Below, piece after piece: positions 28,559 through 44,103 of a DNA stretch of 64,000 nucleotides. The notes under the pieces are model-generated. The model saw nothing but the letters and a program-made list of their open reading frames with translations, was not told the origin of the DNA and made no database searches. A program made the position numbers and the translations under genes. The DNA comes from a virus, in IMG/VR virus record IMGVR_UViG_3300010151_000008, positions 1 through 64,000 of that record, one strand, 5' to 3'. Each line of letters begins with the position of its first letter. The first letter of the stretch is position 1.

Positions 28559-28810
28559 GTGCCGCGATATGCATACATATGTGATGCCTGCGAAGAACAC
28601 TTCTTGACGATGCACTCGTCTGATGAATTATTAGACGAGTGTGAGAAGTGTGGTAAAGGGGGACAATTGCGTAAGACGTTGACCACCCCTTTGTATTCTT
28701 CTGCGAAGCCTACCAAATCTCAAAAGGTTGGCCAAGTAACGGAAGAATTTATTGAAGAATCTCGTAAAGAACTTAAGCAGCAAAAGGAAAGTATGAGCAA
28801 AGAACGATGA
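28559..28810 (+). CDS. FmdB-family zinc-ribbon protein
   Basis: MPRYAYICDAC...CEKCG. Confidence 0.85.
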   Translation: MPRYAYICDACEEHFLTMHSSDELLDECEKCGKGGQLRKTLTTPLYSSAKPTKSQKVGQVTEEFIEESRKELKQQKESMSKER

Positions 28811-29136: not shown

Positions 29137-29809
29137 GAGGCGTAAGAATTATTATTTTACACAAGTGCACGAAGATGCCATTGTTGAATATGCCAATACC
29201 ACAGACCGCGATCGGAGAACTGAGCTATATATTGAATTAATCCAGCCGGCCCTCGATGAAATGGTTAATAAAATCATTTTTACTTATCGATTTACGTCGC
29301 TTCCTAATATTGATTATTTACGTCAAGACTGTAAAATATGGTTGACCACGATTCTTGATAAATTCGACCCTTCCAAAGGGTCAAAAGCCTTTTCTTATTT
29401 TAGTGTTGTAACTAAAAATTGGTTTATTCATAAAGTTAAACAAAACGCTCGCCGCGCGCGCAAAGAAGTTTTCCTAGAGGACATGATAAACGAGCTTGAG
29501 GAAGAAGTTGTATCCCAGGAAAAACAATATGATCAGCTGAGAATAGAACGAGAATTTTGGAACAACTTTTACGAAGAACTTTCGAAGTGGGATGCCGACA
29601 TGCTGAAAGAAAATGAAAAAAAGGTTCTGCAGGCAGTTAAAATCCTTTTTGAATCCTCTGGGGATATTGAAATTTTCAACAAAAAGGCTATTTATTTATA
29701 CTTGAGAGAGATTACGGGGCTTAATACCAAACAGGTCGTCAATAACCTAAATAAACTTCGTAAAAAATATAGGACTTTTAGAGGCAAATGGGAAAGCGGC
29801 GAAATTTAG
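29108..29809 (+). CDS. Phage-encoded sigma factor, T4 gp55 (late sigma)-like
   Basis: DKFDPSKGSKAFSYFSVVTKNWF resembles sigma region 2.2-2.4 of gp55-type factors; GAGGAGG upstream of ATG 29108. Confidence 0.7.
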   Translation: MTKPKKKRAKRRKNYYFTQVHEDAIVEYANTTDRDRRTELYIELIQPALDEMVNKIIFTYRFTSLPNIDYLRQDCKIWLTTILDKFDPSKGSKAFSYFSVVTKNWFIHKVKQNARRARKEVFLEDMINELEEEVVSQEKQYDQLRIEREFWNNFYEELSKWDADMLKENEKKVLQAVKILFESSGDIEIFNKKAIYLYLREITGLNTKQVVNNLNKLRKKYRTFRGKWESGEI

Positions 29810-30084
29810 AAGATTACATCAACGAAGCCACGCGCAACATTAGAGAAGATCGCGCGCTGGCTAAAACGCTTCTTATGGACGCCATGTCTGACATGAAAAG
29901 CGGCGACGCTGCACGTCGAGAACTTGGCTCCATTGCCGCTAAATATGTCGAAAATCTTCAGCGTTCTAACGAACAAATGGTTAAACTCTCTGCACTCCTT
30001 CAGAAGCAGCAATCTGGCGCTGTCGGTCTATCGGAAGAAGACAAAGAGGACCTATATGATATGCTCAACGAGAACGAGGAATAG
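29788..30084 (+). CDS. Helical/coiled-coil hypothetical protein
   Basis: 98 aa; AKYVENLQRSNEQMVKL; GAGG RBS. Confidence 0.65.
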   Translation: MGKRRNLEDYINEATRNIREDRALAKTLLMDAMSDMKSGDAARRELGSIAAKYVENLQRSNEQMVKLSALLQKQQSGAVGLSEEDKEDLYDMLNENEE

Positions 30085-30087
30085 CGT

Positions 30088-31302
30088 GTGGCCAAGAAGA
30101 AAAAAAGTCGTATCAATCAGATGCGTTATGGGGAGATGAATTTTTTAGGGTCTGCCTATGGTAAATCAACTTTTGACCCAAGCCGCGTAGATATTATAAG
30201 TGTTTTACAGGGAAGCAACACCGATTATTATACTGCCAATGTAATCGCCGGGAAGCGACGTTGGAATGCTATCGTACTGAGATCCACTCAACAAACGCAT
30301 GCTACAGTTTCTTCAGAATTCCAGAGATCCTATACCGTTTTTGAGCGGGGAAATGAAGATGGCGAATTTGTACATTTTACATATAAGATTTATATAGCTG
30401 AGCTAGACGGTTTTAAGAAAATCCCTGAAAAGTTCTCGTCTAATTCAGAGGACGCCGGCCTGGTAAACTTATGCCGAGACGCGCTAGCGCCCCTAGGTCA
30501 ATCATATGGCAAGATAGATTATGGTACGCCCGTCGAGGTGGTCTTTGCCGACCAAGAAAAGTTAAGACACCCAACAATTGTAGATGTCCACTGGAATCGA
30601 AGGATTTCATTGCAGAGCGGAGTGCAGCCCCTGTGGACCACGTCAGGCCCCCGAGTGACGGTAGCATCCCCCCACGAGGGCGCCCTACCAGAGGATACCG
30701 GACCCCCCATTCCCGGTCGCGCAGGTCAGGTTCGGAACGGAAAGGCCTTCTACGACGACCTCGGCCGTGCTGGAATAGAGTGTGAGGCGTTGCGCCATGG
30801 AATTTTGGTTAACGTTAAAAATGAGTCAAGATTTGATCCTAGCGTCCCGGGTGACTCCATTCAGCGCTTGGGCGCCCCAGGAAAGCCGGGAGGTATAAAA
30901 ACAGATTACCCGGGCAACCCCGACGCACCATGGCCAAAACTACCCACAAAACTTTATGCTTCCTACGGCCTGTTTCAAATGAACATCGGCCGATCCGACG
31001 CCCTGGGCTGGCAGATGTTAGAATATTACAATTTGACCGATGCTGACAACGACGCCAAATTGGATATTTTGACCGGCGAAAAGGGATATGATAAGCAAAT
31101 AGAATTTATGGTTCATAAGCTAGAGACAAATTATCCTTCGGTCCTCGATTGTTCTAGGTATAAAACTTCACAGCAATATCACGATTTCTGGCTTGAGCAG
31201 ATCGAAAATCCCTCTAAGACTGAGGCCATCGGTCACCGCAACAGACGTAAAGGACTCTTTAAAAGAACCCTTAGAGGACTCGGTTTTGAACCGATCGAAT
31301 AA
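30088..31302 (+). CDS. Paralogue A: shared OB-fold-like N-domain plus lysozyme/lytic-transglycosylase-like C-domain
   Basis: N-domain shared with the next two genes; C-domain KNESRFDP...SYGLFQMN...QIEFM. Confidence 0.7.
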   Translation: MAKKKKSRINQMRYGEMNFLGSAYGKSTFDPSRVDIISVLQGSNTDYYTANVIAGKRRWNAIVLRSTQQTHATVSSEFQRSYTVFERGNEDGEFVHFTYKIYIAELDGFKKIPEKFSSNSEDAGLVNLCRDALAPLGQSYGKIDYGTPVEVVFADQEKLRHPTIVDVHWNRRISLQSGVQPLWTTSGPRVTVASPHEGALPEDTGPPIPGRAGQVRNGKAFYDDLGRAGIECEALRHGILVNVKNESRFDPSVPGDSIQRLGAPGKPGGIKTDYPGNPDAPWPKLPTKLYASYGLFQMNIGRSDALGWQMLEYYNLTDADNDAKLDILTGEKGYDKQIEFMVHKLETNYPSVLDCSRYKTSQQYHDFWLEQIENPSKTEAIGHRNRRKGLFKRTLRGLGFEPIE

Positions 31303-31304
31303 CA

Positions 31305-32501
31305 ATGTCTACTAAAAAAACAGCTCTGAAAGATATCCGCCATGGCGAAATGAATGCTTTAGAAGCACCTTCAACGCAGCCTAGATTTGATCCCTCCCGT
31401 GCGCAGGTTGTTGACGTAATGAGAAACAACATATCAAACCATTATACGGCCAACACCATCAAGGGCAAAAGACGATGGAACGCGATTGTTCTTAAGAGCA
31501 CACAGCAAAAGTATGCGCACGTTGCGTCTGAATTTCAAAGAACCTATACGTCCTACGAGAGGGGCAATAGTGATGGTGAATTTACACACTTTACATATAA
31601 AATATTTATAGCAGAGCTTGATAGCTTTAAGAAGCTCCCTGAAGACTTTAGGAATAGCGGGCCCAGCGCTGGCTTACTTAATTTATGCCGAGATGCCATA
31701 TCTCCTTTGGGGAAGAGTTGGGGCAAGATAGATTATGGTACCCCGGTCGAAGTTGTATTTGAAGACCAGGAGAGACTCCGTACTCCAATTATTACAGACG
31801 TACATTCTAATCGACGCATTGCTCTTAAGGGTGAAAAAAGCGCACAAGGACTTTTCCTTACGTCTCCGCGGATCGCGCGCGAATCAGCCGGAGGATCTGC
31901 AACTGTTGGTAGCCGTACGGTAACAGACTGCAACGAAACTGATTTTGGAGCTTTAAAGAATGTTGATACGTGGCCAAAAAGATGGCGCTCAAAGTGGCGT
32001 GCAATGGAAAAGGCTTCCCGAGCCACCCGAATGGATACGGCCTATAATTATTTTATAAACAAGGATTATAGTGCCGCGGCTAGCGCAGGTATAGTGGGTG
32101 GTTTGATACAAGAGTCATCAGTTAGCCCGGACGCTTGCAATAAGACCGATAAAGATTATTGCGTGGCATACGGTATTGCGCAGTGGACCTCTGAGCGCCA
32201 AAAGAGATTGAAAGAAAAATATCCTAATACCTACAATACACTAAATTCTCAACTAGACTGGTTATACTACGAGCTATCCCAAGGGAGGGAACAAAAAGCC
32301 GGCAGGCTGTTGTCTGCTGCCACCACGTTAGGAGAGGCTGTATATGGGGCTGCCAATTTTGAGAGATTTAGTGGCTATAAGAGCGGTCAACAAGGAATTT
32401 ATACGAACTGTCCTGATTTTGGAAGAGGGCACGAATGGGGCGGCCGCGCCTATTATTCGGTTGGGGTTTACGAACGACACAATAGTTCCGCGGGAGTTTA
32501 A
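31305..32501 (+). CDS. Paralogue B: shared N-domain plus phage tail lysozyme (Phage_lysozyme2-like) domain
   Basis: YSAAASAGIVGGLIQES...YGIAQWT..RQKRL...LNSQLDWLYYEL...FER. Confidence 0.8.
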   Translation: MSTKKTALKDIRHGEMNALEAPSTQPRFDPSRAQVVDVMRNNISNHYTANTIKGKRRWNAIVLKSTQQKYAHVASEFQRTYTSYERGNSDGEFTHFTYKIFIAELDSFKKLPEDFRNSGPSAGLLNLCRDAISPLGKSWGKIDYGTPVEVVFEDQERLRTPIITDVHSNRRIALKGEKSAQGLFLTSPRIARESAGGSATVGSRTVTDCNETDFGALKNVDTWPKRWRSKWRAMEKASRATRMDTAYNYFINKDYSAAASAGIVGGLIQESSVSPDACNKTDKDYCVAYGIAQWTSERQKRLKEKYPNTYNTLNSQLDWLYYELSQGREQKAGRLLSAATTLGEAVYGAANFERFSGYKSGQQGIYTNCPDFGRGHEWGGRAYYSVGVYERHNSSAGV

Positions 32502-32561
32502 ATAGGTAATGTCCATCAAAAAGACAGTGGCCACGATGGTGTGGCGGAGGTACACAAGCTA

Positions 32562-33977
32562 ATGGTTATCAAGCTAGATAAGATTACTCAGATGCGTTAT
32601 GGCCAGATGAATGAGCTGGTTGACCCCATCGCTCAACGACGATTTGATCCGAGCCGAGTGGAGATGGTTAGTGCACTCCGCTCTAACAATATTGATCGCT
32701 ACGTGGCAGATGTTATAGAGGGAAAGGAACGCTGGAACGCGATTGTTTTGTCGAGCACGCCACAGAATTATGCACACGTGGCGTCTGAGTTTCAACGAAC
32801 ATATTCTGCTTTTGAAAGACAAGACGGGGAATTTACACACCACACTTATAAAATTTTTATAGCTGAGCTAGATTCCTTTAAAAAGTTGCCCGACAAGTTT
32901 TCTCGTAGCGACAATCCGGATGCAGGACTGCTTAACTTATGTCGGACTGCTATCGCGCCTCTTGGCCAAGGGTGGGGCAAGATAGACCACGGAACCCCGG
33001 TGGAGGTGGTTTTTGAAGATCAGGAAAGACTAAGAAGTCCAATAATTGTAGACGTACACTGGAACAGGAGAATGCCTTTAGAGGCGGGTAAGACGGCGAC
33101 GTGGTCTGCAGCCGCCCCCCGTGTAACGGTGCCCACTAACGATAATTTAAAACAAGCGCCCCCACCGGTGATCGAAGGCTGCGACAACTATTTTATACCA
33201 TCAAGAGCTGGAGCGAACAAGTCGAGGGTCTTGGCCCTCGGGGCCTCTTTTGCGTCGGGCAAGCAAACTTGGGCTGGCCATGAGAGATTAAATCGCAAAC
33301 CTAGTGGAAATTTAGATCTGGACAGGGTGGCAAAGGGGAGTATGCTATTGGCCGGAGGGAAGAAATCAATACTTGCTCATCTGCAGGCAAACGTCAATTC
33401 GGGATGTATAAAGGCAGAAGACTATGACTCAGTAATAATATTTGGTGGCGCTAACGGAATGACGGACAGAAAAGAAAATCAATGGGAGATGGGTCTTAAA
33501 AAACTTTTAACATACGTACGAGATGAGATGGGGATTCAATACAGATATGTTGTAACCCTCCATGGCTGGTATGGCTGGAGAGACACGAGGAGAAAACTGG
33601 CCGATAAGGACAGCGGACTCCCTGATGACCCGAGCACACCAGATGTTGATGAATCAAAGGAGGAAGTTTGGGCGAGCGGCTGGAAAGAACCTAAAAGAAA
33701 AAAAGTAGCGGAGTGGACACTGAAGTATAACAACGACATCATCGCAGCCGAGGGTGACCTCATTACTGGCGTCTTAAGGTGGAGCAAGGACGCGACCGCC
33801 ACTAACGAGACTGGAAGCGAAGACATAGGCGAGATTATTCCAATAGGAGAACCAGGAGGACCTCGCGACTGGTTCCGAAAACCATGGGCCAGCAGCGATG
33901 GCTTACATCCCAGTGAGGCAGGCCACAAGGAAATTGCGCGCCGTCTTCGCGCGATGGGGATCCCAGGTCTAAAGTGA
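32562..33977 (+). CDS. Paralogue C: shared N-domain plus SGNH/GDSL hydrolase domain
   Basis: VLALGASFA (block I); IIFGGAN (block III); DGLHPSEAGH (block V). Start ATG 32562 chosen by alignment with paralogues. Confidence 0.78.
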   Translation: MVIKLDKITQMRYGQMNELVDPIAQRRFDPSRVEMVSALRSNNIDRYVADVIEGKERWNAIVLSSTPQNYAHVASEFQRTYSAFERQDGEFTHHTYKIFIAELDSFKKLPDKFSRSDNPDAGLLNLCRTAIAPLGQGWGKIDHGTPVEVVFEDQERLRSPIIVDVHWNRRMPLEAGKTATWSAAAPRVTVPTNDNLKQAPPPVIEGCDNYFIPSRAGANKSRVLALGASFASGKQTWAGHERLNRKPSGNLDLDRVAKGSMLLAGGKKSILAHLQANVNSGCIKAEDYDSVIIFGGANGMTDRKENQWEMGLKKLLTYVRDEMGIQYRYVVTLHGWYGWRDTRRKLADKDSGLPDDPSTPDVDESKEEVWASGWKEPKRKKVAEWTLKYNNDIIAAEGDLITGVLRWSKDATATNETGSEDIGEIIPIGEPGGPRDWFRKPWASSDGLHPSEAGHKEIARRLRAMGIPGLK

Positions 33978-34080: not shown

Positions 34081-35397
34081 ATGGCCGACGACCCCACTAG
34101 AACATCAGCCGAGATAGCACAATCTCTAGCTTATTATGACCCTACTTCGGGCCCCCCGATTATTCCCCCCGATCCATCTTCTCCCGATGGTGAGATTCTT
34201 TATGGCGAACTGGGAGATGAGCGTAGAGAAAGTTATAATAACTACGCCATGGATCTCGATCAATATGATCGGCAGCTGGAACAGTACGAGGAATATTTAA
34301 CCTCTCAGCAAGATCCTGGTTCTGCTAATCCTGCGATGTCACCCGGGGCGATTACCGCCGCAGCCGGTGCGCTTGGTCTGCCCGACCCTCCAGGCCTCCC
34401 CAGTTCGGGCCCCCCCGCCCCCGGCGCGTCGTCCTTGGGGCCCGTGCAACAAAAACCAGCTGTAGATTTGGGAGACCCCCTTGAGGCCGAGTCATTTGAG
34501 AAGATGTCTTTGCCGGATCAGATTGCTTTTTCGGGTATTGGAGGTTCCAAGCGCCGCGGCGTAGACGTCCCCAAATTTATTAAGACGCCTGCAGAAAAAG
34601 TTTTAGACAATGGAAATGCTTTTATTGTTTTGGGGGTCGACCGAAGTGGTAATCCGTTTGAGGGCTATGGTGGACTGGGAAACACTCATTGTGCGGCGAT
34701 TGATATTGTTGCCGGCCGCATGGGCGCCCGCGCTAGAAGCAGAGATGATAGCAAACCTTTTCCGAAGCCGGTGTGGACCAACGTTGGTTTTATTGCCGAC
34801 GCTGCGCGCGTATATATTTCTCAAAAGTCAAATGTGGATGCATATTTTGGCCTGGCAGCCGGCACAGTAGGGAATACATCATATGAATCGCCTCGGTCCA
34901 CTGTCGCTCTCAAAGCCGACACTATTCGAATCATTGGCCGAGAAGGGATCAAGCTGGTGACCAATACGGATACTCAAAATTCTCAAGGCGGTGTTGTACA
35001 TGGCTCTCCCGGTATTGACTTGATAGCAAATAACAATGATGAGGACATGCAGCCGCTTGTGAAGGGTAACAATTTGATAGAGGCACTTAAAGAAATATTA
35101 AAACTAATTGACGATCTTCGCGACCTATTTAATAACTTTGTTAGCTATCAAAAAGATCTGAATCGAACGTTAATGACGCATAGCCACTATTCTCCATTTT
35201 ACGGAGCGGCTACGAGCCCGGATCCACAAGTGATTCGACAGGCTACCCAATTTTTGATCGATACTGTTAGAAACGTAGAACTGGGCGCCCAGAACCACAT
35301 GATGAATTCAGTTGGAATTTCAATGAATTATTTAGAACTTCCTCTGCCAGGAAAAGACAGCACTTACATAAATAGTACCAACAACCACACGAATTAA
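34081..35397 (+). CDS. Putative baseplate central spike / gp5 C-terminal-like protein
   Basis: Pro-rich N-terminus; beta-rich DAARVYISQK, ALKADTIRIIGREGIKLV; QPLVKGNNL; helix then THSH (HxH); position upstream of gp25/gp6. Confidence 0.6.
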   Translation: MADDPTRTSAEIAQSLAYYDPTSGPPIIPPDPSSPDGEILYGELGDERRESYNNYAMDLDQYDRQLEQYEEYLTSQQDPGSANPAMSPGAITAAAGALGLPDPPGLPSSGPPAPGASSLGPVQQKPAVDLGDPLEAESFEKMSLPDQIAFSGIGGSKRRGVDVPKFIKTPAEKVLDNGNAFIVLGVDRSGNPFEGYGGLGNTHCAAIDIVAGRMGARARSRDDSKPFPKPVWTNVGFIADAARVYISQKSNVDAYFGLAAGTVGNTSYESPRSTVALKADTIRIIGREGIKLVTNTDTQNSQGGVVHGSPGIDLIANNNDEDMQPLVKGNNLIEALKEILKLIDDLRDLFNNFVSYQKDLNRTLMTHSHYSPFYGAATSPDPQVIRQATQFLIDTVRNVELGAQNHMMNSVGISMNYLELPLPGKDSTYINSTNNHTN

Positions 35398-35401
35398 TAT
35401 T

Positions 35402-38400
35402 ATGGCACGCACACCCAAGATAATAAGCAAATGGACGAGCAAAGAAACTGGTGTTGCTTATACGCAGTTTAATAAATCAAAAGTAGCAGTACAGACACAG
35501 TATACCACAGCAGATGAAATTGAACAAAACACTGAGGCGATTCTTGAACTGGGCGCCCTTGCTCTTATGCGCTATTATTTCCCCGGCTCTTGGTATCAGG
35601 TAGCTGCAGGGGTCCAGGGTGACACATATGGAAGTCTACTTTTTAGTAATTTATTAGACAAGCTTACGGTCTCGGCTACCGATTTTAATAGCCGGCCTAA
35701 GATGGGGCTTCGTGTTTTGGTGGCGTGCTCTATTGATTTGACAGATGAGGAAGAGACTGCCGAGATAATTCCTCCCGAGAGTGGCCCGCCAGCTGATTTA
35801 GAGTTAGCATTGGATTATTATCTTTCTACTGGGTCGACTGATATCAAAAAAGTTTCGAGTACCGGCCGATCTATGACATTTTCAGCGGACACCCTCAACG
35901 AAAACCTGAAATTGATTGGCGCCGCTTTTACTAAATATCATAAACAACATCGTTTTTTTAATGGGCAGATTAAGCCTTCAATAAATTTTTTAAAGGAATT
36001 TGATCTTATATCAAGTTCAATTCATGCCATTCTGCGTCTGGCTGCCCAGAACTATATTGACACAGGTATTCACTCAGGTACAACATTTAAAGTTGATTTT
36101 AATGGTGATTATTCTATTGTAAATATAAAAGCCATAACTCCTGAAGGGCGCTACCTATCTCTTCCTGTGGGGTTGCTGCCGTCTTTGGGCGCCGCAGCGT
36201 TGTCTTCAAGACAAACTAATGTTTATCTGGCGTCTTTTAAAGATATATTAATCAAGTTAAGAACTCGGGGCCCGACTCAAGATTCTTATGCCAACTTTAT
36301 TAATTTTATAAAACAAGTATCCTCCCTCGGCCCGACTAAATACAAAATTAATTATTCGGGGCCGTCCCGAACCGCCGATGCCGGCGCTACCGCGGCTGCT
36401 ACCGCCACCCAAGGAACGGCAGCCGCAACCGGCACTGCTACTGGGGTGGATCCAGATGGCCCCCCAAACGCAGAACTTGGTCTGACTCCGGAGGAGAAAG
36501 AGAAACAAGAAAAGGTTATAACTCCCAAAGAGGCGGCAGAAATTCTCGAACAACAGATGAAAAAGGTCGACAAGGCCGCCCAAGAGGTCTCTAAAGAAGT
36601 TGGCAAGAAGTTGCGCGAGTTACAGGGTACCGAAGGTTTTCAAATATTCACGATGATCATCAATCGGATAGGGATTGATTCTCTTGTAAAGGAGGGGCTC
36701 CTTTGTATGCTCTTCGGAGTTGATTTTAGTATACCCGATCTTTATTCTGACATAAGAGATATGCTTTCCGCTGGCGATGGACTTTTTAGTAAGCCAAAGA
36801 CAGGCGCCCTTGTGGGCTTTGATATTCCTAAAGTGGACATGAAGTGGGAAATTTTTAAGATTACGGGAAACATTCAGCCGATGATCAAGAAGGCTCTTTT
36901 GGATGCCGTCTTCGGCGCAGTACGAGGGATCCTTGAAGCCGTTACAGAATTAATTCGCGAACAATGTGAAGCTCGCGATACCGGCAATTTTGGCGACATA
37001 GACCTTGCTAGCCTATTACAAGATAAGCCGGCCGGCGGTACTGGACTACTTGGTGATGGTTCTGGGCCTAATGGTTGTTTTTCTGAATTCGGCTTACCTC
37101 CAACGTCAGGGAACAATTTTCTTTCCCAGGTATCTCAAATCTTGACCCCGATCGAGGCATGCCAGCTTTTGACGGGGTCAGCCTCGGCCGCTGTTATGTC
37201 CGCGGTCCAAAATTTCATTCAAAATTATTCTAGCGCTACAATACAAAACGCTCTTGGGTCGCCCTCTGAAATAGCCGCCTTCTTTTTATGTATAGGGGAC
37301 CAACTCGATGTAAACGATCTTTGTCGGGAAGCTGCCGAGCGCGATATAATCCCCAACGCAGAGGAAATTTGTATTACAGGTGGGGACATTTTAGATGCTG
37401 TGGGTCAACATAATGTTAACACTCTTCTCGATATGCTTAAGGATGGCATCGCGGTGGAAATGCCAGAGATCAACTTACAGTGCCCCGACTCCGAGAACTA
37501 TATTCCCAACCCCTTTGTTGATCGATCGATCCCACAGTTAATGAGCGCTCTAATAGAGTCAATAGCCGCCAGCTTTTATTTCGCGGCCGACGGCACGAAG
37601 GCGGTTCTTTTGAGATCGCAGTTGGGACAGAATGCTACAGCAAATGCTTTGTTAGAGGCTTGCTTAAGCGAGTCAGGTTCAATGCCGGCCTCCGAGGCTC
37701 GCGGCGGAGCTGGCGCCACTCCCGGTGATATTATTGCTATGATCAGTGAGGGCATCCAGGAAGTAGTGTCAACAGACCTTAACGCTGCGTCCGATGCATG
37801 CGGTATCACCTTGGGAGAAATATTCCGAGGAACAGACGATCTAGCCGAGGTATTGGCAACATTTCAAGATGTCATAGAAAACTTTGATTTCTCGGCTTTG
37901 GGAGACATGTCCGCACAGTTGGGCTCGAACGCAAGCGATTTGGCCGCGGCGCAGTTGAGACTCGACTTTCCAGAGGGTTATAAAGAGGATTTCTTAGAAT
38001 TTATTCCTACGGCTATCAAGACTGAACTCTATAATGGCAACTATTTGTACAATTTCAACACAGCCTATCAATCTCCAGCTTTTCATGTAGAAGCGGAGGG
38101 ACCGCCATTCACGTATACGCTCGACGATGGAGACGACGACGGCGACGGCACCCCTAACTACGACGACCGCGACGAAGGCGGCACCGGCGAACCGCACGAG
38201 AACTACGATATGCACGCTCTGCAGAATGCTGCCGACGCCGCGCAGCACGCCGCCATGGCCCGGACTCGATACACGACCACCTTCGCACTCCCAGCTGAGG
38301 GATATCAGGCCAATGCAAATGCAGCTCAGATGCAAGAAGAGTTAGAAGCCATAGAGGAATGGGAATTCAATCATGGTAACTCTAATATGATAGGACAATC

Positions 38401-41400
38401 GAGGCACTTTGAAGAGTGGCTGAAGGGAAACCGGCAAGGTGACCTTTGGTGGGAGGAAGGCCAGCAGGACTGGTGGTCTCCCGAGGGCTATTCGTGGTAT
38501 CAGTGGTTTAAGCTTTGGGCCGAGCAAAGAATTGAGCGCGATGAGGAACAAGGGCCTGATTGGTGGATGCGGTCGACCTTAGCCCTCCCGGCTGATACGC
38601 GTGGCGCGCTCCCCGGGTTTGGCAATAAACAGCTATTAGGTCCGGGGTATGGGCCCGAAGATCCGCAGCCGGAGGTGGATGGCTACCAGCAAGGCTGGTG
38701 GGATATGTACCGTGCCCCAGAGCGCTGGGCCACAGCGACGCAAGCAGAAATACGCGCAGACGAGAGAGTGTGGAAAATATATCAAACGCTGTTCTCGCCA
38801 TGGCTCCGTGCCAATCCAGACGACTCCATTTTGGCCGGCGAATGGGACTACGGCGAGGTCTGGTGGATCGCAAATATTCCATTTGAGTATGTCCCCCGAC
38901 CTCCCGGCCCGGGTGGCGGTGGCCCTCAGCCAATTGCTCACATCGGGCGGTCTACGATGTTCGGTGCACCCGAAGGGATAGGTGGCCGCTCTGCCGGCTT
39001 CTCTGCTGGAACTGGAATAAAATTCCTGTTCCGGAAAGAATATGCGATTCAAAAGTATGAGAGCATTCATTTCCCGAGTTTTCAAGAAGTAACAGAAGAT
39101 AACCAGAATATATTTGTTGCCAGCGCCCCTGTGGCCTTTCGTGGAGAGATTCCTTTTATAGAGGGGCGTCAGGGACTGCAGACGACTACTGCAACAGAAT
39201 TGTATGCCGTGAACCAATCCGCGCACGGATCGGTAATTTCTCCAGATAGAATCGCAGAACGCGACGCCAATCCAGCGCGCGGCCTTTTTGCTGACATAAT
39301 CCACTCAGCATTCGCGAAAAATCTGCTAGAACACGGGAATAGTGACCTAGCCGCGGCCGCGAGGGTCACAGCCGCCGGCGGCGAATACACCTCCGGCATC
39401 TTGGCCGAATTCTATAACAACCTAGAACACCAATATTATTATGCAGCCATGGCCGGAACTATGAAGCAAATGAGTGCTTACATAGTGAAAAATGGTGCAT
39501 TTACACTTGATAGAGTACTTAAGATCCTGGTGGTTCCGGAGAGTGCTAACGATGCTACAGAACAGTTGGGAGATCTACTAGATTTCAAAAAGCTTGTTCG
39601 TGAAGTGCAGGATGAATATGTAGATGCTATTTGCTACGACGGTCTTAGTCAAGACGAGGTTTTGATTAATTCGCTTGTGTACGGAGCTATAGAACTATTT
39701 TTACAAGTGCATCTGGTTGAGTTTTATTTACAAAATGTGTTTGTTTTGTCGGCATTTGATTTAGACGGGCTGTACGAACTAGAATTGGTGATGGCATATA
39801 TTTCTTCCTCCATACAAAATACGATTGCTACTTTTTTGCAGGGGATAAGTGCCTCAGGGGCCCAGTATAATTTGTTTGAAACGAATTTTCAAGATGCGGT
39901 AGTGGAGCATGTTAGCAGAAAAATTATACGCGACGGCGGCGCTCCTATCGATGGTGAGATTCTGTCATCTTTGGGAATGTCAGAAGGCGATTTGGGAACC
40001 TACGAAGCTAGCATTAGATATCTTCTGGCTAAAAGGATGAAGGAATCCGCCCCAGCTGTATCTAAAATTATCTCCCAATGTTCACTTGGGTCTGTCGACG
40101 AAGTCTTCTTGAAGGCGGGAATTGGCATTTCTAAACCATTTTTGAAAGGCCTAGGAGCCGATTGGGGACTTAGTTCTACTAGTCGATATCTAGTAGCATC
40201 GCCAGGTGATCGGGATCTTGGGTTTACCGAGGAAGATGCTCAAATTATTGCCTATGGTGGATTTAGATTTGAGAAAATAATTAGATTCACACCGCATACA
40301 TCCGGATATTACGGAGGCTCTGAGGAAAATCCAGATGTACACCTAAGGGTGGACAAGGAGCTGGGAACCATTGCAGGGGGCAATTGGGTAGCTAACGACA
40401 CCTTTAAGATCGGCTCGGCCTATCACACCGATTCACCAATAACACAAAACTTTGTTTCATTGGACAAGCTAATTAGAGTTTTAGACGACCCCGCGGTTAC
40501 GGATAACATGACCATTCTGGGTAATCCAACGTTATATTATCGATTGGTATATTATGTTCCGATGCAAACTCGATCCGAGTATTCCGCCAACTCCTCCGGC
40601 GAAATAATTTTCGCGGACTCGGCAACTAAAAACCAAGAAATAATGGACACGATCGAGGCGTACTTCCTCGATGCTCGTGACGGAGATGACGCCATAGTGA
40701 GAGACACGCTCGATACCCTTATCAACGACCAAGCTTCATTTGTTCCGTTCTTGGTGGGCCCCGGCGGAGGGGACGCATCGATGTCGCACGCCGTCGCCGC
40801 GCCCGCATCGAGACAGAACATGACGATAGGAATTCCCATTTTAGAAGTTGAGTCGGGGGTAAATCTACCCAACAGTATGCGTCTTGATACTGATTCGAGC
40901 GCTCCCAAGCGGTACTGGGGCGCCCCCACAACGGGTGGATTATCGTTGATAAGGTCTTTGGCAGAAAAGGATTTCTTAGATGGAGATGTCGAGATCATCA
41001 TGAATGACGAGGTTGTGAAAGCACTGTTTAATAAGAGTCTGAGCAAAGATGTTATTCTGTCTACCCTCTTGTTTAATAATTTTTATCTAACAAAATCACA
41101 CTTTAGGGGAATCGATACGATCTTTAAGTCCTGCAAGGAATCGGTGGCCGCACTAATGATGCAAATACAGCAAGGCCGCGGCCTCCAGCCAGACGCTGGT
41201 GCAGCCGGCATCGCTCAAATACAGAATGCTTTAGCTAATCAAGGTCAGGGGGGAGGTAGTGACGATCCCAACGTGGCGGCCTATATCATAAAAGCTATAA
41301 TCCAAACTCCTTTTGATATCCTTAAGGGCTTAGCCGAGATAATGGATCCACATGTTGTTATAACCAAAATGATAAAAGATATAAGTGGTATGGTGATAAC

Positions 41401-41836
41401 ACAGTTTATTGAGGTTTTAGAGTCAGCATTTGGCGCCGTCCCGGGCCTAGCACAGCTTGACATTGATGTGGAGAAACTAGTAGAAGTTCTTTTCTGTACC
41501 ATGAATGAAGAAATAAAGAAGAACGGGCCCATGTCAAACGCCGCGGCAGAAATATCAGAGATGTTGTGTCAAGACATCAATCCGTGGCCCACCTTTACGA
41601 CAAAAGGAATCCAGTTTACTGGGACCATTCCCGGCATGTTTATGGCCCCTCCGGGCCCTCTGGGAATTTTCTATCTTATATATGGATTACTTAAAAACGA
41701 GATTGACAGAGGTATTGACGATGCCTTCGCCGCCCCAGCCGGCGAAACAGACGAATTCTGTATTGATGTAGAAGCTGTTGTCGAAGGCGAAGAAGATACT
41801 GGCTGCGTACCGTTCACTGCGCAGCGCGACGACTAA
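35402..41836 (+). CDS. 2144-aa virion protein of unknown function (baseplate-associated)
   Basis: Long uninterrupted ORF between spike-like and gp25-like genes; helical; hydrophobic C-terminus. Confidence 0.75.
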   Translation: MARTPKIISKWTSKETGVAYTQFNKSKVAVQTQYTTADEIEQNTEAILELGALALMRYYFPGSWYQVAAGVQGDTYGSLLFSNLLDKLTVSATDFNSRPKMGLRVLVACSIDLTDEEETAEIIPPESGPPADLELALDYYLSTGSTDIKKVSSTGRSMTFSADTLNENLKLIGAAFTKYHKQHRFFNGQIKPSINFLKEFDLISSSIHAILRLAAQNYIDTGIHSGTTFKVDFNGDYSIVNIKAITPEGRYLSLPVGLLPSLGAAALSSRQTNVYLASFKDILIKLRTRGPTQDSYANFINFIKQVSSLGPTKYKINYSGPSRTADAGATAAATATQGTAAATGTATGVDPDGPPNAELGLTPEEKEKQEKVITPKEAAEILEQQMKKVDKAAQEVSKEVGKKLRELQGTEGFQIFTMIINRIGIDSLVKEGLLCMLFGVDFSIPDLYSDIRDMLSAGDGLFSKPKTGALVGFDIPKVDMKWEIFKITGNIQPMIKKALLDAVFGAVRGILEAVTELIREQCEARDTGNFGDIDLASLLQDKPAGGTGLLGDGSGPNGCFSEFGLPPTSGNNFLSQVSQILTPIEACQLLTGSASAAVMSAVQNFIQNYSSATIQNALGSPSEIAAFFLCIGDQLDVNDLCREAAERDIIPNAEEICITGGDILDAVGQHNVNTLLDMLKDGIAVEMPEINLQCPDSENYIPNPFVDRSIPQLMSALIESIAASFYFAADGTKAVLLRSQLGQNATANALLEACLSESGSMPASEARGGAGATPGDIIAMISEGIQEVVSTDLNAASDACGITLGEIFRGTDDLAEVLATFQDVIENFDFSALGDMSAQLGSNASDLAAAQLRLDFPEGYKEDFLEFIPTAIKTELYNGNYLYNFNTAYQSPAFHVEAEGPPFTYTLDDGDDDGDGTPNYDDRDEGGTGEPHENYDMHALQNAADAAQHAAMARTRYTTTFALPAEGYQANANAAQMQEELEAIEEWEFNHGNSNMIGQSRHFEEWLKGNRQGDLWWEEGQQDWWSPEGYSWYQWFKLWAEQRIERDEEQGPDWWMRSTLALPADTRGALPGFGNKQLLGPGYGPEDPQPEVDGYQQGWWDMYRAPERWATATQAEIRADERVWKIYQTLFSPWLRANPDDSILAGEWDYGEVWWIANIPFEYVPRPPGPGGGGPQPIAHIGRSTMFGAPEGIGGRSAGFSAGTGIKFLFRKEYAIQKYESIHFPSFQEVTEDNQNIFVASAPVAFRGEIPFIEGRQGLQTTTATELYAVNQSAHGSVISPDRIAERDANPARGLFADIIHSAFAKNLLEHGNSDLAAAARVTAAGGEYTSGILAEFYNNLEHQYYYAAMAGTMKQMSAYIVKNGAFTLDRVLKILVVPESANDATEQLGDLLDFKKLVREVQDEYVDAICYDGLSQDEVLINSLVYGAIELFLQVHLVEFYLQNVFVLSAFDLDGLYELELVMAYISSSIQNTIATFLQGISASGAQYNLFETNFQDAVVEHVSRKIIRDGGAPIDGEILSSLGMSEGDLGTYEASIRYLLAKRMKESAPAVSKIISQCSLGSVDEVFLKAGIGISKPFLKGLGADWGLSSTSRYLVASPGDRDLGFTEEDAQIIAYGGFRFEKIIRFTPHTSGYYGGSEENPDVHLRVDKELGTIAGGNWVANDTFKIGSAYHTDSPITQNFVSLDKLIRVLDDPAVTDNMTILGNPTLYYRLVYYVPMQTRSEYSANSSGEIIFADSATKNQEIMDTIEAYFLDARDGDDAIVRDTLDTLINDQASFVPFLVGPGGGDASMSHAVAAPASRQNMTIGIPILEVESGVNLPNSMRLDTDSSAPKRYWGAPTTGGLSLIRSLAEKDFLDGDVEIIMNDEVVKALFNKSLSKDVILSTLLFNNFYLTKSHFRGIDTIFKSCKESVAALMMQIQQGRGLQPDAGAAGIAQIQNALANQGQGGGSDDPNVAAYIIKAIIQTPFDILKGLAEIMDPHVVITKMIKDISGMVITQFIEVLESAFGAVPGLAQLDIDVEKLVEVLFCTMNEEIKKNGPMSNAAAEISEMLCQDINPWPTFTTKGIQFTGTIPGMFMAPPGPLGIFYLIYGLLKNEIDRGIDDAFAAPAGETDEFCIDVEAVVEGEEDTGCVPFTAQRDD

Positions 41837-41887: not shown

Positions 41888-42283
41888 ATGGCTAATGGTT
41901 TATCGGTGGCTCTTCCGCTTCAACAGAGTCCTATTTTTGGTACGTACAGACTAAACACCACGTTTGCAGAGATCGCGCGACAAAACCTGAAGATGCTTTT
42001 GTTAACCAATCCGGGCGAGAGAATGATGGATCCGGAGTTTGGTGTTGGAATGCAGAGATACTTATTTGAAGCGAATACGAAGTTTGTATACTCAGAGATA
42101 CAAAGTAGAATTGAGCAGCAAGTTAAAAAGTATCTTCCATACATAGGAATAGATAAAATTGAGTTTTTAACATCCGCTTTGGAGTCAGCCGTTGATCCTC
42201 ACTATTTGGGAGTCAATGTTTCTTTTATAATACTGCCACTTAACATGAGTTCTCTGTTGCAGATTAATGCAAACGGAAACTAA
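41888..42283 (+). CDS. Baseplate wedge subunit, T4 gp25/GpW-like
   Basis: QNLKMLLLTNPGERMMDPEFGVG...YLFE...KKYLPYI. Confidence 0.9.
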   Translation: MANGLSVALPLQQSPIFGTYRLNTTFAEIARQNLKMLLLTNPGERMMDPEFGVGMQRYLFEANTKFVYSEIQSRIEQQVKKYLPYIGIDKIEFLTSALESAVDPHYLGVNVSFIILPLNMSSLLQINANGN

Positions 42284-42312: not shown

Positions 42313-44103
42313 ATGCCAAAAAAACTGCAACCGATTAACTACACAAGTAGAGACTTTGATAGTATCAGGCGTGACTTAGAAAATTACGCTAAGCGCTATT
42401 ATCCCGATTCGTATCGAGACTTTAATGAAGCCAGTTTTGGCTCTTTGATGTTGGACACCGTTTCCTATATAGGGGATATTCTTTCCTTTTATATAGATTA
42501 TCAGACCAATGAAAGCTTTTTAGACAGCGCTATAGAATATAGTAACATAGTACGTCTTGCGAGGCAACTCGGGTTTAAGTTAAACTCCAGCCCCTCGTCT
42601 TATGGGGTTCTGACTTTTTATATCAGCGTTCCGGCTTCCACCTCGGAAGACGGACCAGATTTGGCGTACGCACCCACTCTACAAGCCGGCTCTCAGTTTG
42701 GTTCGAGCGGCGGTGGCCTTTTCACCCTTCTTGAAGATATTACTTTTTCCAACCCCGCTAATCAGATGGTGGCCGGCGTGATAGTTAATGAAGCGCCCGC
42801 ATCTTATGTTATACGTGCCCAGGGGCGCGCGGTTTCTGGACGGCTAGCACGAGAAACCAAAATTGTTGGAACCTATGAGCGTTTTAGAAAAGTATTTCTT
42901 TCATCTGACCAGGTCGCAGAGATTATATCAGTAACTGATTCCGAGGGTCATGAGTACGTAGAGGTTAATAATCTCTCTCAGAACGTAGTTTATAAGGCAA
43001 TTCGGAATACTCAAGCGTTTAGTGATACGGTACCCTCCATACTGAAAGCGGTGCCGGTCGCCCGCCGATTTACAGTTGAGAGGAGCAAGCGCGCCACTTA
43101 CTTGCAGTTTGGGTACGGATCTGACTCAGAGCTGCTTGCGGAATCGATAGCTGATCCATCTAATGTGGTTTTAAAGCTTCATGGAAAAGATTATATTACT
43201 GAAGATGATTTTGATCCAACGAGATTAATAGAAAGTGATAAATTTGGAATTGCTCCGGCTGATACCACATTAACGATCTCCTACAGAGTTAATACAACTC
43301 GCGATGTTAATGCGGCGGTGGACACTGTTGTACAGGTCTTATCCCCGCAGATAAAATTTTCAAACCAGGGCGCCTTGAATTCCACTACCAGACGAGAGGT
43401 GGCTGCGAGCCTTGAGGTAACCAACGAAAACCTAATTACAGGGGATATATCTTTGCCATCCTCTGATGAAATCCGCCAACGGGTAATTTCTCATTATTCG
43501 GCACAAAACCGCGCGGTAACAGCACAGGATTATCAGGCTGTCATTTATGGCATGCCCGTCTATTTCGGATCTGTAAAACGGTGTTCTGTGGCGAGGGACT
43601 TTACGGAGTTTAAAAGAAACGTCAACATGTATGTTATTTCTGAAGATACAACGACCGGTCGACTTACCACTACCAACTCCATTATCAAAACCAACCTTAG
43701 TACGTGGTTGGCCCAATACAAAATGATAAATGATACACTTGATATATTAGATGCCATCATAGTCAACTTTGGCGTGGAGTATCGGCTAATATCAGACTAT
43801 GACTCAAATAAATATACAGTGCTAAAAAATGCCAATTCTGCCCTAACTGCACACTTTTCCAGAACTCGTGATATCGGTGAGCCGGTATATATTACAGATA
43901 TTTATAAGGTATTGAATGGCGTTAAAGGAGTAGTAGACGTGTTGGATGTTCAGATAGTTAGCAAAACGGGCGGCATTTATTCATCGACTGGATACGATTT
44001 CGAAGCAAAACTATCTAACGACGGTCGTTATATAGTTGGAGATCCGTCGGTTATATTTGAGTTGAAATACCCCAATGTAGATATTCAGGGATCAATCACA
44101 TAA
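42313..44103 (+). CDS. Baseplate wedge protein, T4 gp6-like
   Basis: INYTSRDFDSIR...DFNEASFG...D.LSFY.D...NESFLDSA; LQFGYG; QNRAVTAQDY. Confidence 0.9.
   Translation: MPKKLQPINYTSRDFDSIRRDLENYAKRYYPDSYRDFNEASFGSLMLDTVSYIGDILSFYIDYQTNESFLDSAIEYSNIVRLARQLGFKLNSSPSSYGVLTFYISVPASTSEDGPDLAYAPTLQAGSQFGSSGGGLFTLLEDITFSNPANQMVAGVIVNEAPASYVIRAQGRAVSGRLARETKIVGTYERFRKVFLSSDQVAEIISVTDSEGHEYVEVNNLSQNVVYKAIRNTQAFSDTVPSILKAVPVARRFTVERSKRATYLQFGYGSDSELLAESIADPSNVVLKLHGKDYITEDDFDPTRLIESDKFGIAPADTTLTISYRVNTTRDVNAAVDTVVQVLSPQIKFSNQGALNSTTRREVAASLEVTNENLITGDISLPSSDEIRQRVISHYSAQNRAVTAQDYQAVIYGMPVYFGSVKRCSVARDFTEFKRNVNMYVISEDTTTGRLTTTNSIIKTNLSTWLAQYKMINDTLDILDAIIVNFGVEYRLISDYDSNKYTVLKNANSALTAHFSRTRDIGEPVYITDIYKVLNGVKGVVDVLDVQIVSKTGGIYSSTGYDFEAKLSNDGRYIVGDPSVIFELKYPNVDIQGSIT

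What the first reader, a model, noticed from the sequence alone, without database searches (positions are those of the whole stretch)
30088..33977. Three tandem proteins with one shared docking domain and three different cell-wall enzymes
Seen: 30088, 31305 and 32562 share ~170 highly similar N-terminal residues (R(Y/H)G(E/Q)MN...FDPSR...RWNAIVL.ST.Q..A.V.SEFQR.Y..(F/Y)ER...DGEF.H.TYKI.IAELD.FKK.P..F...AGL.NLCR.A..PLG...GKID.GTPVEVVF.DQE.LR.P.I.DVH.NRR). After a linker they diverge completely: (A) ES..P...YGLFQ lysozyme/transglycosylase-like fold, (B) phage tail lysozyme, (C) SGNH hydrolase. GTPVEVVF.DQ...PII resembles the G.EV.V.F..GD...P.I signature of the gp5/VgrG OB-fold. Established: T4 gp5 is a homotrimer with OB-fold, lysozyme and beta-helix. 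Inference: a split, diversified gp5 in which three paralogues form a heterotrimeric hub, or alternative homotrimers, delivering three enzymes. This would be a modular polymorphic warhead system on a phage baseplate.
Basis: partly seen in the sequence, partly recalled or inferred. Interest (0 to 1): 0.9.

Follow-up and report, generated by a model that had tools for sequence, protein, structure and literature searches.

The report
Triplicated gp5-like tail enzyme array
In an uncultured marine T4-related ("Far-T4"-type) phage, the baseplate gene that joins a gp5-like OB-fold anchor to a cell-wall enzyme is present three times in a row with three different enzymes, and across related phages the anchor stays genome-specific while the enzyme part is swapped, which suggests a modular way of arming the tail tip.

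Summary
Three tandem genes share an N-terminal domain of about 180 residues (59-67% identical). Their C-terminal domains are unrelated: a lysozyme/transglycosylase-like domain, PF18013, and an SGNH-like domain.

The shared domain folds as a helix plus a five-stranded OB barrel. It most resembles the OB folds of central spikes, VgrG and gp5 (Z up to 7.6), and it shows a faint profile match to gp5 OB domains.

In 80 related IMG/VR loci, a protein with this domain sits directly before a conserved HxH protein (34081-35397). After that come a giant protein, gp25 and gp6. The copy number is 1 in 58 loci, 2 in 6 and 3 in 4, plus the window.

On a tree, N-domains group by genome, whereas C-domains group across genomes. 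Identity collapses at about residue 190, which points to cassette exchange. C-domains seen in the family include amidase, M15, M23, M74, GH19, GH24, SLT, SGNH, GDPD and phosphatase types.

Best reading: this is the clade's split gp5 equivalent, expanded in tandem here. An obligate A+B+C heterotrimer is untested, and the 1- and 2-copy genomes make it unlikely as a rule. Virion location, trimer state and binding to the HxH protein remain inferences. The scan's other notes on this stretch come from first readers only.

The parts
29788..30084 (+). 98-aa ORF that is conserved immediately upstream of the anchor-enzyme gene(s); function unknown
   Evidence: A homologue occupies the same position in nearly all 80 related loci. 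No Pfam or PHROG hit.
30088..31302 (+). Paralogue A: N-terminal OB anchor (about 30088-30650) plus a lysozyme/transglycosylase-like C-domain
   Evidence: PF18013 E 1.5e-4, below cut-off; ES...GLFQ motifs by eye. The C-domain clusters with L011_1262, L048_4925 and L057_5575.
31305..32501 (+). Paralogue B: OB anchor (about 31305-31860) plus a PF18013 phage tail lysozyme domain. This is the variable slot: other strains and phages carry GDPD, a lambda-lysozyme-like(?) domain or VanY here.
   Evidence: E 2e-19; P0006 is 90-100% identical to residue 180, then unrelated, with GDPD.
32509..32562 (+). 17-codon ORF in the B-C spacer whose start (MSIKKT) resembles B's start (MSTKKT). It could be a recombination scar, but it is too short to judge.
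32562..33977 (+). Paralogue C: OB anchor (about 32562-33120) plus an SGNH/GDSL-like esterase domain
   Evidence: E 3.4e-4, below cut-off. The C-domain clusters with L011_3837 and L073_4383. The start follows homologue P0007.
34081..35397 (+). Conserved partner gene (P0004): disordered Pro-rich N-terminus, beta region about 165-300, and a long helical hairpin with an invariant HxH (H367, H369) at its turn. Candidate spike or tip.
   Evidence: It lies directly downstream of the anchor-enzyme gene in 68 of 80 loci. Weak Gp5_C/DUF2345 lead.
35402..41836 (+). 2144-aa protein, conserved in position (1800-2330 aa, sometimes split into two ORFs); function unknown (tape measure or hub candidate)
41888..42283 (+). 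gp25-like baseplate wedge protein
   Evidence: PF04965 E 1.5e-11; phrog_261 and phrog_43.
42313..44103 (+). gp6-like baseplate wedge protein
   Evidence: phrog_219 E 1e-21; tblastn to annotated baseplate wedge proteins.

Best explanation
The three genes are a tandem expansion of one conserved baseplate gene of a widespread, uncultured marine clade of T4-related myoviruses. Its nearest cultured relatives by capsid and gp6 are Flavobacterium phage immuto, Microcystis phage Mel-JY01 and Rhodothermus phage RM378, that is, 'Far-T4'-type phages. The gene encodes an N-terminal helix plus an OB-fold anchor that is a distant equivalent of the gp5/VgrG/gpV spike OB domain. After a roughly 20-residue linker comes an exchangeable envelope-degrading enzyme. 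Unlike T4 gp5, the chain has no needle. The next gene, which is always present, encodes a separate protein with an invariant HxH at the turn of a helical hairpin, and this protein probably supplies the axial or tip part. Inferred mechanism: the anchors dock at the three-fold hub/spike position of the baseplate, so the tail tip carries the enzymes into the periplasm or cell wall when the tail contracts. In the window's phage three different enzymes (two lysozyme-like domains and one SGNH esterase) compete for or share these positions as interchangeable subunits, giving mixed trimers or alternative homotrimers. The anchor co-evolves with the phage's own docking site and so stays genome-specific. 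Recombination just after the anchor swaps enzyme cassettes between phages. Shown: the paralogy, the fold class, the synteny, the copy-number range, the cassette boundary and the diversity of the enzyme domains. Inferred: virion location, trimeric state, binding to the HxH protein or hub, and enzyme activities.
For: Paralogy and junction. Fold: the AlphaFold model (pLDDT 71.5) has helix 30-46 plus a five-stranded barrel at 58-166. The VIA-align top hit is phage P1 baseplate chain 9vzk_q (Z 7.6, rmsd 3.0, 77 aligned residues). Other hits are KP1 and A-1(L) baseplate chains (Z 6.7), CIS/AFP/PVC spikes (6.2-6.3), VgrG1 (6.1), a chain of the phage Mu baseplate entry (9ki1_V, Z 6.0), the R2 pyocin and phiKZ spikes (5.0-5.2), at 17-21% identity for several. 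After the family's own members, the BFVD hits are cyanophage 'baseplate hub + tail lysozyme' and Gp5-OB proteins (E 3e-3 to 5e-2). The ESM Atlas nearest named cluster is Gp5 N-terminal OB (score 0.93, 183/256 features). hhalign of 61 N-domains against 13 gp5 OB domains scores 24.0 (P 0.0044) and aligns residues 90-170 to T4 gp5 20-103. Sixty column-shuffled controls gave mean 10.5, sd 2.1, max 17.7. Position: the order sig243-orf98-[anchor-enzyme x1-3]-HxH protein-giant-gp25-gp6 holds in about 80 loci. Gene 5 precedes gene 6 in T4. One member (L019) carries PF00959 Phage_lysozyme after the anchor; that this is the family of T4 gp5's own lysozyme domain is from background knowledge, not tested here. 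Enzyme diversity. Genome-specific anchors against shared cassettes: the tree (window trio SH-aLRT 99; L057 100; L073 98) set against the C-domain clusters. In other metagenomes the same array keeps its N-domains while the C-domains diverge.
Against: No sequence-level membership in Gp5_OB or Phage_base_V: nothing at E<=10 in the whole 92.7-kb record. The profile also finds no PDB sequence. The fold hits (Z 5-7.6) are in the range that generic OB folds reach, and eIF1A, uS12 and PAN OB domains score similarly. No gp27/gpD hub and no Gp5_C repeat were found in the held half of the genome, so the docking partner is unidentified. The HxH protein's fold search gave only generic helical hairpins. No proteomic, structural or expression data exist for any member.
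Confidence: 0.55

Rival explanations
1. Obligate 1:1:1 heterotrimer: A, B and C each occupy one of the three positions around the hub axis, so every virion carries one copy of each enzyme.
For: The array has exactly three copies, matching three-fold symmetry. A second, distant phage (L001/L011) keeps three copies, with its A-type and C-type cassettes orthologous to the window's. Three-copy arrays also occur in L057, L073 and L084.
Against: 58 of 80 related loci have one copy and 6 have two. The docking site therefore accepts homotrimers, and two-copy phages cannot be 1:1:1. One three-copy array (L057) has a middle copy with no enzyme. The N-domains of one genome are each other's closest relatives. 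That fits one shared docking surface rather than three specialised, mutually fitting subunits.
Confidence: 0.15
2. The anchor docks the enzymes elsewhere in the tail or baseplate, for example on the giant downstream protein or inside the tube as ejected proteins, and not at the gp5 position. The OB resemblance is then convergent or generic.
For: The OB match is weak. No hub protein was identified. A conserved 2144-aa protein of unknown role follows in every locus. Tail enzymes fused to tape-measure proteins are known, for example the P1 tape-measure candidate Sit with its SLT domain (PMC9024508).
Against: Among OB folds, the spike/VgrG ones lead the structural list and show the highest identities. 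The profile alignment falls on the gp5 OB region in the right order. No other gp5-like OB is found in the record.
Confidence: 0.2
3. They are not virion proteins. Instead they are soluble lysis or host-remodelling enzymes whose OB domain binds cell-wall glycan or nucleic acid.
For: OB folds bind oligosaccharides and nucleic acids in many contexts. Foldseek's best PDB hits are ribosomal uS12. No expression or proteome data exist, and no RNA-type run is listed as holding the stretch.
Against: The position is fixed inside the baseplate gene block, ahead of gp25 and gp6, in every locus examined. N-domain evolution is genome-specific, as expected for a structural docking domain. The enzymes in the set (amidase, M15, M23, lysozyme types) are of the kinds reported for tail-associated enzymes (A-1(L) hub: lysozyme, endoglucanase and peptidase domains). 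Single long chains carry two enzymes behind one anchor (L051).
Confidence: 0.1

Closest known systems
T4 gp5 (baseplate central spike with tail lysozyme) and cyanophage gp5
   Same: An N-terminal OB fold is followed by a peptidoglycan-degrading domain. The gene lies just ahead of baseplate wedge genes (gene 5 before gene 6 in T4). One family member has a PF00959 phage lysozyme domain behind the anchor. There is a faint profile match to the gp5 OB region.
   Different: The chain has no C-terminal triple beta-helix, and no Pfam Gp5_OB or Gp5_C match. An extra N-terminal helix and inserts are present. The enzyme is exchangeable and of many families. The gene is present in 1-3 copies. A separate HxH protein follows.
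P2 gpV / phi92-type spikes and the P1, Mu and A-1(L) central spikes (N-terminal helix, OB fold, beta domain, apex with HxH-bound iron)
   Same: The anchor has the helix-plus-OB arrangement described for the A-1(L) gp25 spike (PMC10966104). The best structural hits are baseplate chains of P1, KP1, A-1(L) and Mu. The downstream protein has an invariant HxH, the motif that binds iron at the gpV apex (established knowledge; 10.1101/2023.02.25.529910 listed).
   Different: Here the OB and the HxH parts are on different polypeptides. The HxH lies at the turn of a predicted alpha-helical hairpin, not at the end of a beta-helix.
Anabaena phage A-1(L) hub gp15 with lysozyme, endoglucanase and peptidase domains
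   Same: Several different envelope-degrading activities are carried at the hub/spike of one contractile tail (PMC10966104).
   Different: In A-1(L) the enzymes are domains of one hub chain. Here they are on separate paralogous chains that share an anchor. In single-copy relatives they are strung on one long chain behind the anchor (L051: VanY plus Amidase_2).
'Evolved' VgrG proteins and polymorphic toxin systems of type VI secretion
   Same: A conserved structural or delivery module at the N-terminus with a variable effector at the C-terminus, and a sharp recombination junction between them. Several paralogues with different effectors occur in one genome. VgrG OB domains are among the structural hits.
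   Different: This is a phage baseplate context. The effectors are cell-wall enzymes for entry, not toxins. The anchor is only the OB part, without the gp27-like and beta-helix parts.

Membership tests
Gp5_OB (PF06714) / gp5-type spike OB domain | Match to the Pfam model at or above its cut-off | tested here: not met
   No match at E<=10 anywhere in the 92.7-kb record. Pfam scans of A, B and C show nothing in the N-domain.
Gp5_OB (PF06714) / gp5-type spike OB domain | Five-stranded OB barrel structurally similar to spike OB domains | tested here: met
   The model has strands 58-68, 95-102, 129-132, 147-154 and 159-166. Z is 7.6 to 9vzk_q, and 6.0-6.7 to the KP1, A-1(L), AFP, PVC, VgrG1 and Mu baseplate-entry chains. 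Generic OB folds score similarly, so this shows fold class, not homology.
Gp5_OB (PF06714) / gp5-type spike OB domain | Detectable remote sequence homology (profile-profile) | tested here: inconclusive
   hhalign score 24.0, P 0.0044, probability 7.8%, 74 columns on T4 gp5 residues 20-103. None of 60 shuffles reached it (max 17.7). Against the single T4 sequence, E is 0.32.
T4 gp5 architecture | C-terminal triple-stranded beta-helix needle in the same chain | tested here: not met
   The chains end with the enzyme domain. No Gp5_C match in the record.
T4 gp5 architecture | Trimer bound to a gp27-type hub | not testable with these tools
   No gp27/gpD-like gene was found in the held half of the genome. 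The one complex job, against the HxH protein, gave no verdict.
Phage_lysozyme2 (PF18013), paralogue B | Match above the Pfam cut-off | tested here: met
   70.5 bits against a cut-off of 28.2, E 2e-19, residues 243-362.
Phage_lysozyme2 / SLT-like, paralogue A | Match above the Pfam cut-off | tested here: inconclusive
   22.4 bits against a cut-off of 28.2. ES and GLFQ motifs are seen by eye. No PDB sequence hit.
SGNH/GDSL hydrolase, paralogue C | Match above the Pfam cut-off and the conserved Ser, Gly, Asn and His blocks | tested here: inconclusive
   21.3 bits against a cut-off of 23.6 (PF00657). The blocks GASFASG, GGANG and DGLHP are present by eye in the translation. No PDB sequence hit.
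gpV-type spike apex (for 34081-35397) | Conserved HxH motif | tested here: met
   H367 and H369 are invariant in 54 homologues.
gpV-type spike apex (for 34081-35397) | Beta-helical spike fold with its own OB domain | tested here: inconclusive
   The monomer model (pLDDT 64) shows a beta region and a helical hairpin. The fold searches returned only generic helical hits and faint SSB-type OB hits.

The most novel reading that the evidence does not exclude
The tail tip of these phages is a combinatorial device. A split spike has an OB-anchored 'enzyme ring' built from up to three different paralogues per virion, either as a defined heterotrimer or as a mixture. Its enzyme cassettes are traded between phages at a fixed junction, so the envelope-breaching chemistry (glycosidase, amidase, endopeptidase, esterase, phosphodiesterase, phosphatase) can be re-tuned independently of the rest of the baseplate.
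Probability: 0.2. Interest if true: 0.8.

Novelty: new variant of a known kind. Interest (0 to 1): 0.6.

Why it matters
Tail-tip enzymes decide whether a contractile phage can cross a given cell envelope. In well-studied phages the central spike carries one fixed enzyme or none. Here a whole, abundant marine clade appears to have separated the anchor from the needle and turned the enzyme into an exchangeable cassette, in one to three copies. If the proteins are in the virion, this gives a natural system for studying how a three-fold spike accommodates different subunits. It would also give a catalogue of entry enzymes, including unusual ones such as GDPD and PTP-like phosphatase domains, that hints at the envelope chemistry of uncultured hosts. 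Finally, it defines a junction that could be used for domain-swap experiments in laboratory phage-host pairs. In the paper library searched I found no description of this family or of its copy-number variation. The library does not cover all journals.

Tried and rejected
1. Complex prediction of B's N-domain with residues 126-438 of the HxH protein: no verdict (score 0.00, controls not run). This is evidence neither for nor against binding.
Contexts were obtained with the search for related loci instead.
3. Sequence searches for the N-domain found nothing: Pfam and PHROGs, PDB sequences with A1 and with the 61-sequence profile A9, and tblastn and megablast against GenBank phages.
4. hhalign against the single T4 gp5 sequence was not significant. 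Only the 13-sequence gp5 profile gave a weak signal.
5. The HxH protein had no hit in PDB sequences or in GenBank phages by tblastn; Pfam and PHROGs found nothing either. Its fold searches returned only helical hairpins.
6. Giant protein: no Pfam, PHROG or PDB hit.
7. Flavobacterium phage immuto gp116 as an unsplit form of anchor plus HxH protein: hhalign gave no support (P 0.3-0.5), and neither HMM hit it.
8. The idea, from memory, that the L001/P0012-type cassette is lambda-lysozyme-like (GH104): no PDB sequence hit, and not tested further.
9. The T4 late-promoter motif TATAAATA is not enriched, and none lies upstream of the array on the + strand. The sigma-70 and terminator scans were uninformative.
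10. No RNA holder was listed among the sequencing runs.
11. A first metagenome scan with A6 failed for lack of conserved columns. The scan with A4 found only L001's contig again plus a 6.6-kb copy. Viral-contig scans with P0019 and P0010 found nothing.
12. Recent gene conversion between the three copies: no long identical DNA tracts.
Full report
**What is there.**
- The window is the first 64 kb of a 92.7-kb IMG/VR viral contig, estimated about half complete.
- Three + strand ORFs follow one another: A 30088-31302, B 31305-32501 and C 32562-33977.
- The ORF listing extends C to a GTG at 32541. The near-identical homologue P0007 starts at the ATG.
- The first ~180 residues align cleanly. The 174-column N-domain alignment has 92 invariant columns, and pairwise identity is 59-67%.
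- From about residue 181 on, identity per 20-residue window falls to <=30%.
- B carries PF18013 Phage_lysozyme2 (E 2e-19).
- A hits the same family below cut-off and has ES...GLFQ motifs.
- C hits GDSL/SGNH below cut-off and has GASFASG, GGANG and DGLHP blocks by eye.
The enzyme labels for A and C are provisional.

**What the shared domain is.**
- It has no Pfam, PHROG, PDB-sequence or GenBank-phage match.
- An AlphaFold2 model built on a 24-sequence alignment (pLDDT 71.5) gives an N-terminal helix (30-46) and a five-stranded barrel (58-166).
- Foldseek against the PDB returns ribosomal uS12 OB folds at E about 2e-3.
- The exhaustive VIA-align search has these leading hits:
  - a chain of the phage P1 baseplate at the top (9vzk_q, Z 7.6, rmsd 3.0, 77 residues);
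  - the KP1 and A-1(L) baseplate chains (Z 6.7);
  - CIS, AFP and PVC spikes (Z 6.2-6.3);
  - VgrG1 (Z 6.1);
  - a chain of the phage Mu baseplate entry (9ki1_V, Z 6.0);
  - the R2 pyocin and phiKZ spikes (Z 5.0-5.2).
- These hits are interleaved with eIF1A, uS12 and PAN OB folds, so the search shows an OB fold with spike OBs enriched, not proof of homology.
- In BFVD, the best non-family hits are cyanophage 'baseplate hub + tail lysozyme' and Gp5-OB proteins.
- The ESM Atlas places the domain next to a 'Gp5 N-terminal OB' cluster (0.93, 183/256 features).
- I built a 61-sequence profile of the domain (A9) and a 13-sequence alignment of gp5 OB domains from T4, cyanophages, Vibrio, Aeromonas, Rhizobium and Ackermannviridae phages.
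- hhalign of the two gives score 24.0, P 0.0044. It aligns residues 90-170 with T4 gp5 20-103 in the expected motif order.
- Sixty column-shuffled controls average 10.5 (sd 2.1, max 17.7), and the reversed alignment scores 12.7.
- The Pfam models Gp5_OB and Phage_base_V find nothing in the whole record.
- Conclusion: this is a gp5/VgrG-like OB anchor by fold, context and a faint profile signal. It is not a member of the curated family.

**The wider family and its context (the main new result).**
- A narrow profile finds only 23 representatives among 1.84 billion proteins.
- The downstream gene 34081-35397 (P0004) has more than 670 homologues.
- I fetched 80 IMG/VR loci by that gene and searched them with an iterated HMM of the N-domain.
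- A protein with the N-domain lies immediately upstream of the P0004 homologue in 68 loci.
- Of the other 12 loci, 8 are cut off within 1 kb upstream. The other 4 have a 460-1310-aa ORF in the same slot that the HMM does not recognise.
- Copy number is one in 58 loci, two in 6 and three in 4 (L011 = L001, L057, L073, L084), plus the window. Some loci are near-duplicates, leaving 74 distinct proteins.
- The gene order is essentially invariant: [~82 aa][~108 aa][228-245 aa, weak late-sigma hit][~100 aa][anchor-enzyme x1-3][HxH protein][giant 1800-2330 aa, sometimes split][gp25][gp6].
- gp25 and gp6 are supported by Pfam, PHROGs and tblastn.
- By capsid and gp6 the nearest cultured phages are Flavobacterium phage immuto, Microcystis phage Mel-JY01 and Rhodothermus phage RM378. 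This is the neighbourhood called Far-T4 (PMC4360716). That paper does not mention gp5, baseplate or lysozyme.

**Enzyme cassettes.** These C-terminal domains were found behind the anchor:
- Amidase_2, VanY/Peptidase_M15, Peptidase_M23 and Peptidase_M74;
- a GH19-like domain, PF00959 Phage_lysozyme (L019), SLT and PF18013;
- SGNH and DUF2272;
- GDPD (P0006) and a PTP-type phosphatase (L084, P0021);
- several unassigned domains.

Long single-copy forms (870-1277 aa) string two enzymes behind one anchor, for example L051 with VanY plus Amidase_2. One copy in the L057 array is anchor-only (247 aa).

**Evolutionary pattern.**
- On a maximum-likelihood tree of 73 N-domains, the copies within one genome group together. 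SH-aLRT support is:
  - window trio 99;
  - L057 100;
  - L073 98;
  - L084 83;
  - L030 97;
  - L088 100.
- The C-domains instead cluster across genomes:
  - A-type: window, L011, L048 and L057;
  - C-type SGNH: window, L011 and L073;
  - a third type: L011, L033, L041, L047, L073 and L084.
- Pairs with nearly identical anchors carry unrelated enzymes, and identity collapses within residues ~180-200:
  - B against P0006 is 90-100% identical and then <=30% except one 20-residue window at 45%;
  - L014 against L022 is 80-100% identical, then about 20%.
- In independent marine metagenomes the same three-gene array recurs with conserved anchors, but the C-domain of A is replaced by 286 diverged letters and parts of B's C-domain have diverged (compare P0008 and P0005).
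- The three window copies are 65-78% identical in DNA with no long identical tracts. Any homogenisation is therefore not recent.
- Together this indicates an anchor constrained by a genome-specific partner and an enzyme part that is exchanged at a fixed junction.

**The downstream HxH protein.**
- The family core (about 328 aa) has invariant H367 and H369.
- The window's copy has an extra ~125-residue Pro/Gly/acidic N-terminus.
- The monomer model (pLDDT 64) shows a beta region (165-300) and a long helical hairpin (329-366 and 382-418) with HxH at the turn.
- Fold searches give only generic helical hits and faint SSB-type OB hits.
- The Atlas's nearest named clusters are DUF2345, Gp5_C and Gp5_trimer_C at 0.82-0.84, which is only a lead.
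- A trimer would bring six histidines together, as at the iron site of the P2 gpV apex (established knowledge). This is inference.

**Interpretation.**
- The best-supported reading is a split gp5 equivalent. One polypeptide carries the OB anchor plus an enzyme, and the next gene supplies the axial or tip part.
- The window's phage has expanded the first gene to three copies.
It remains possible in three-copy phages.
- Interchangeable subunits (mixed trimers or alternative homotrimers) fit the within-genome similarity of the anchors at least as well.
- Virion location, oligomeric state and the docking partner are not shown.
- No gp27/gpD-type hub or Gp5_C repeat is detectable in the held half of the genome.
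- The single complex prediction gave no verdict.

**Novelty and score.**
- Tail-associated lysins, gp5 and effector-bearing VgrGs are known. The A-1(L) hub already shows several enzymes at one tail tip (PMC10966104).
- Four things appear new:
  - the clade-wide split of anchor and needle;
  - the sharp cassette junction;
  - the 1-3 copy variation with genome-specific anchors;
  - the breadth of enzymes.
- I rate it a new variant of a known kind, with interest 0.6.
- The earlier notes of this scan on the same stretch are first-reader notes only and were treated as leads.

Noticed in passing
window 32509-32562: A 17-codon ORF in the B-C spacer begins MSIKKT, like B's MSTKKT. Its stop overlaps C's ATG (TAATG). 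It could be a recombination scar of another copy, but it is too short to distinguish from chance.
   Followed up: partly
L057:4830-5570: The middle gene of another three-copy array encodes the anchor domain only (247 aa, no enzyme domain, no Pfam hit).
   Followed up: partly
window 34081-34455: The window's HxH protein has a ~125-residue Pro/Gly/acidic, predicted disordered N-terminal extension. Most of its >670 homologues (~328 aa) lack it.
   Followed up: partly
window 35402-41836 and L012-L044: The giant protein that always follows (2144 aa here, no family hit) is split into two ORFs (about 1400-1780 aa plus about 500-640 aa) in many related loci. Its C-terminus has a hydrophobic PGPLGIFYLIYGLL segment.
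   Followed up: no
L102:10885-12018 (Flavobacterium phage immuto gp116): In the nearest cultured relative, the slot between the sig243/orf98 homologues and gp25/gp6 holds a 378-aa protein. By eye it has an OB-like N-terminus and an 'EPVILGRQL' helix resembling 'QPLVKGNNL' of the HxH protein, so it may be an unsplit form. hhalign gave no support.
   Followed up: partly
window 30803-31096, 31945-32217, 32426: Contigs from other marine metagenomes carry the same array with conserved anchors. The C-domain of A is replaced by 286 diverged letters, stretches of B's C-domain are diverged, and there is a 13-nt insertion after 32426.
   Followed up: partly
window ~30000: G+C rises from about 0.39 (24-30 kb, glycan-synthesis genes) to 0.47-0.51 (30-42 kb) exactly where the array and baseplate block begin.
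   Followed up: no
P0006, P0021, L084:5604-6923: Some cassettes are not peptidoglycan hydrolases: a glycerophosphodiester phosphodiesterase (GDPD + DUF4996) and PTP/DSP-type phosphatase domains. These hint at teichoic-acid-like or phosphorylated envelope targets.
   Followed up: no
window 28559-28810: An 83-aa Zn-ribbon protein (PF09723, E 7.5e-9) and two further small ORFs are conserved upstream of the 243-aa weak late-sigma-like gene in nearly all related loci.
   Followed up: no
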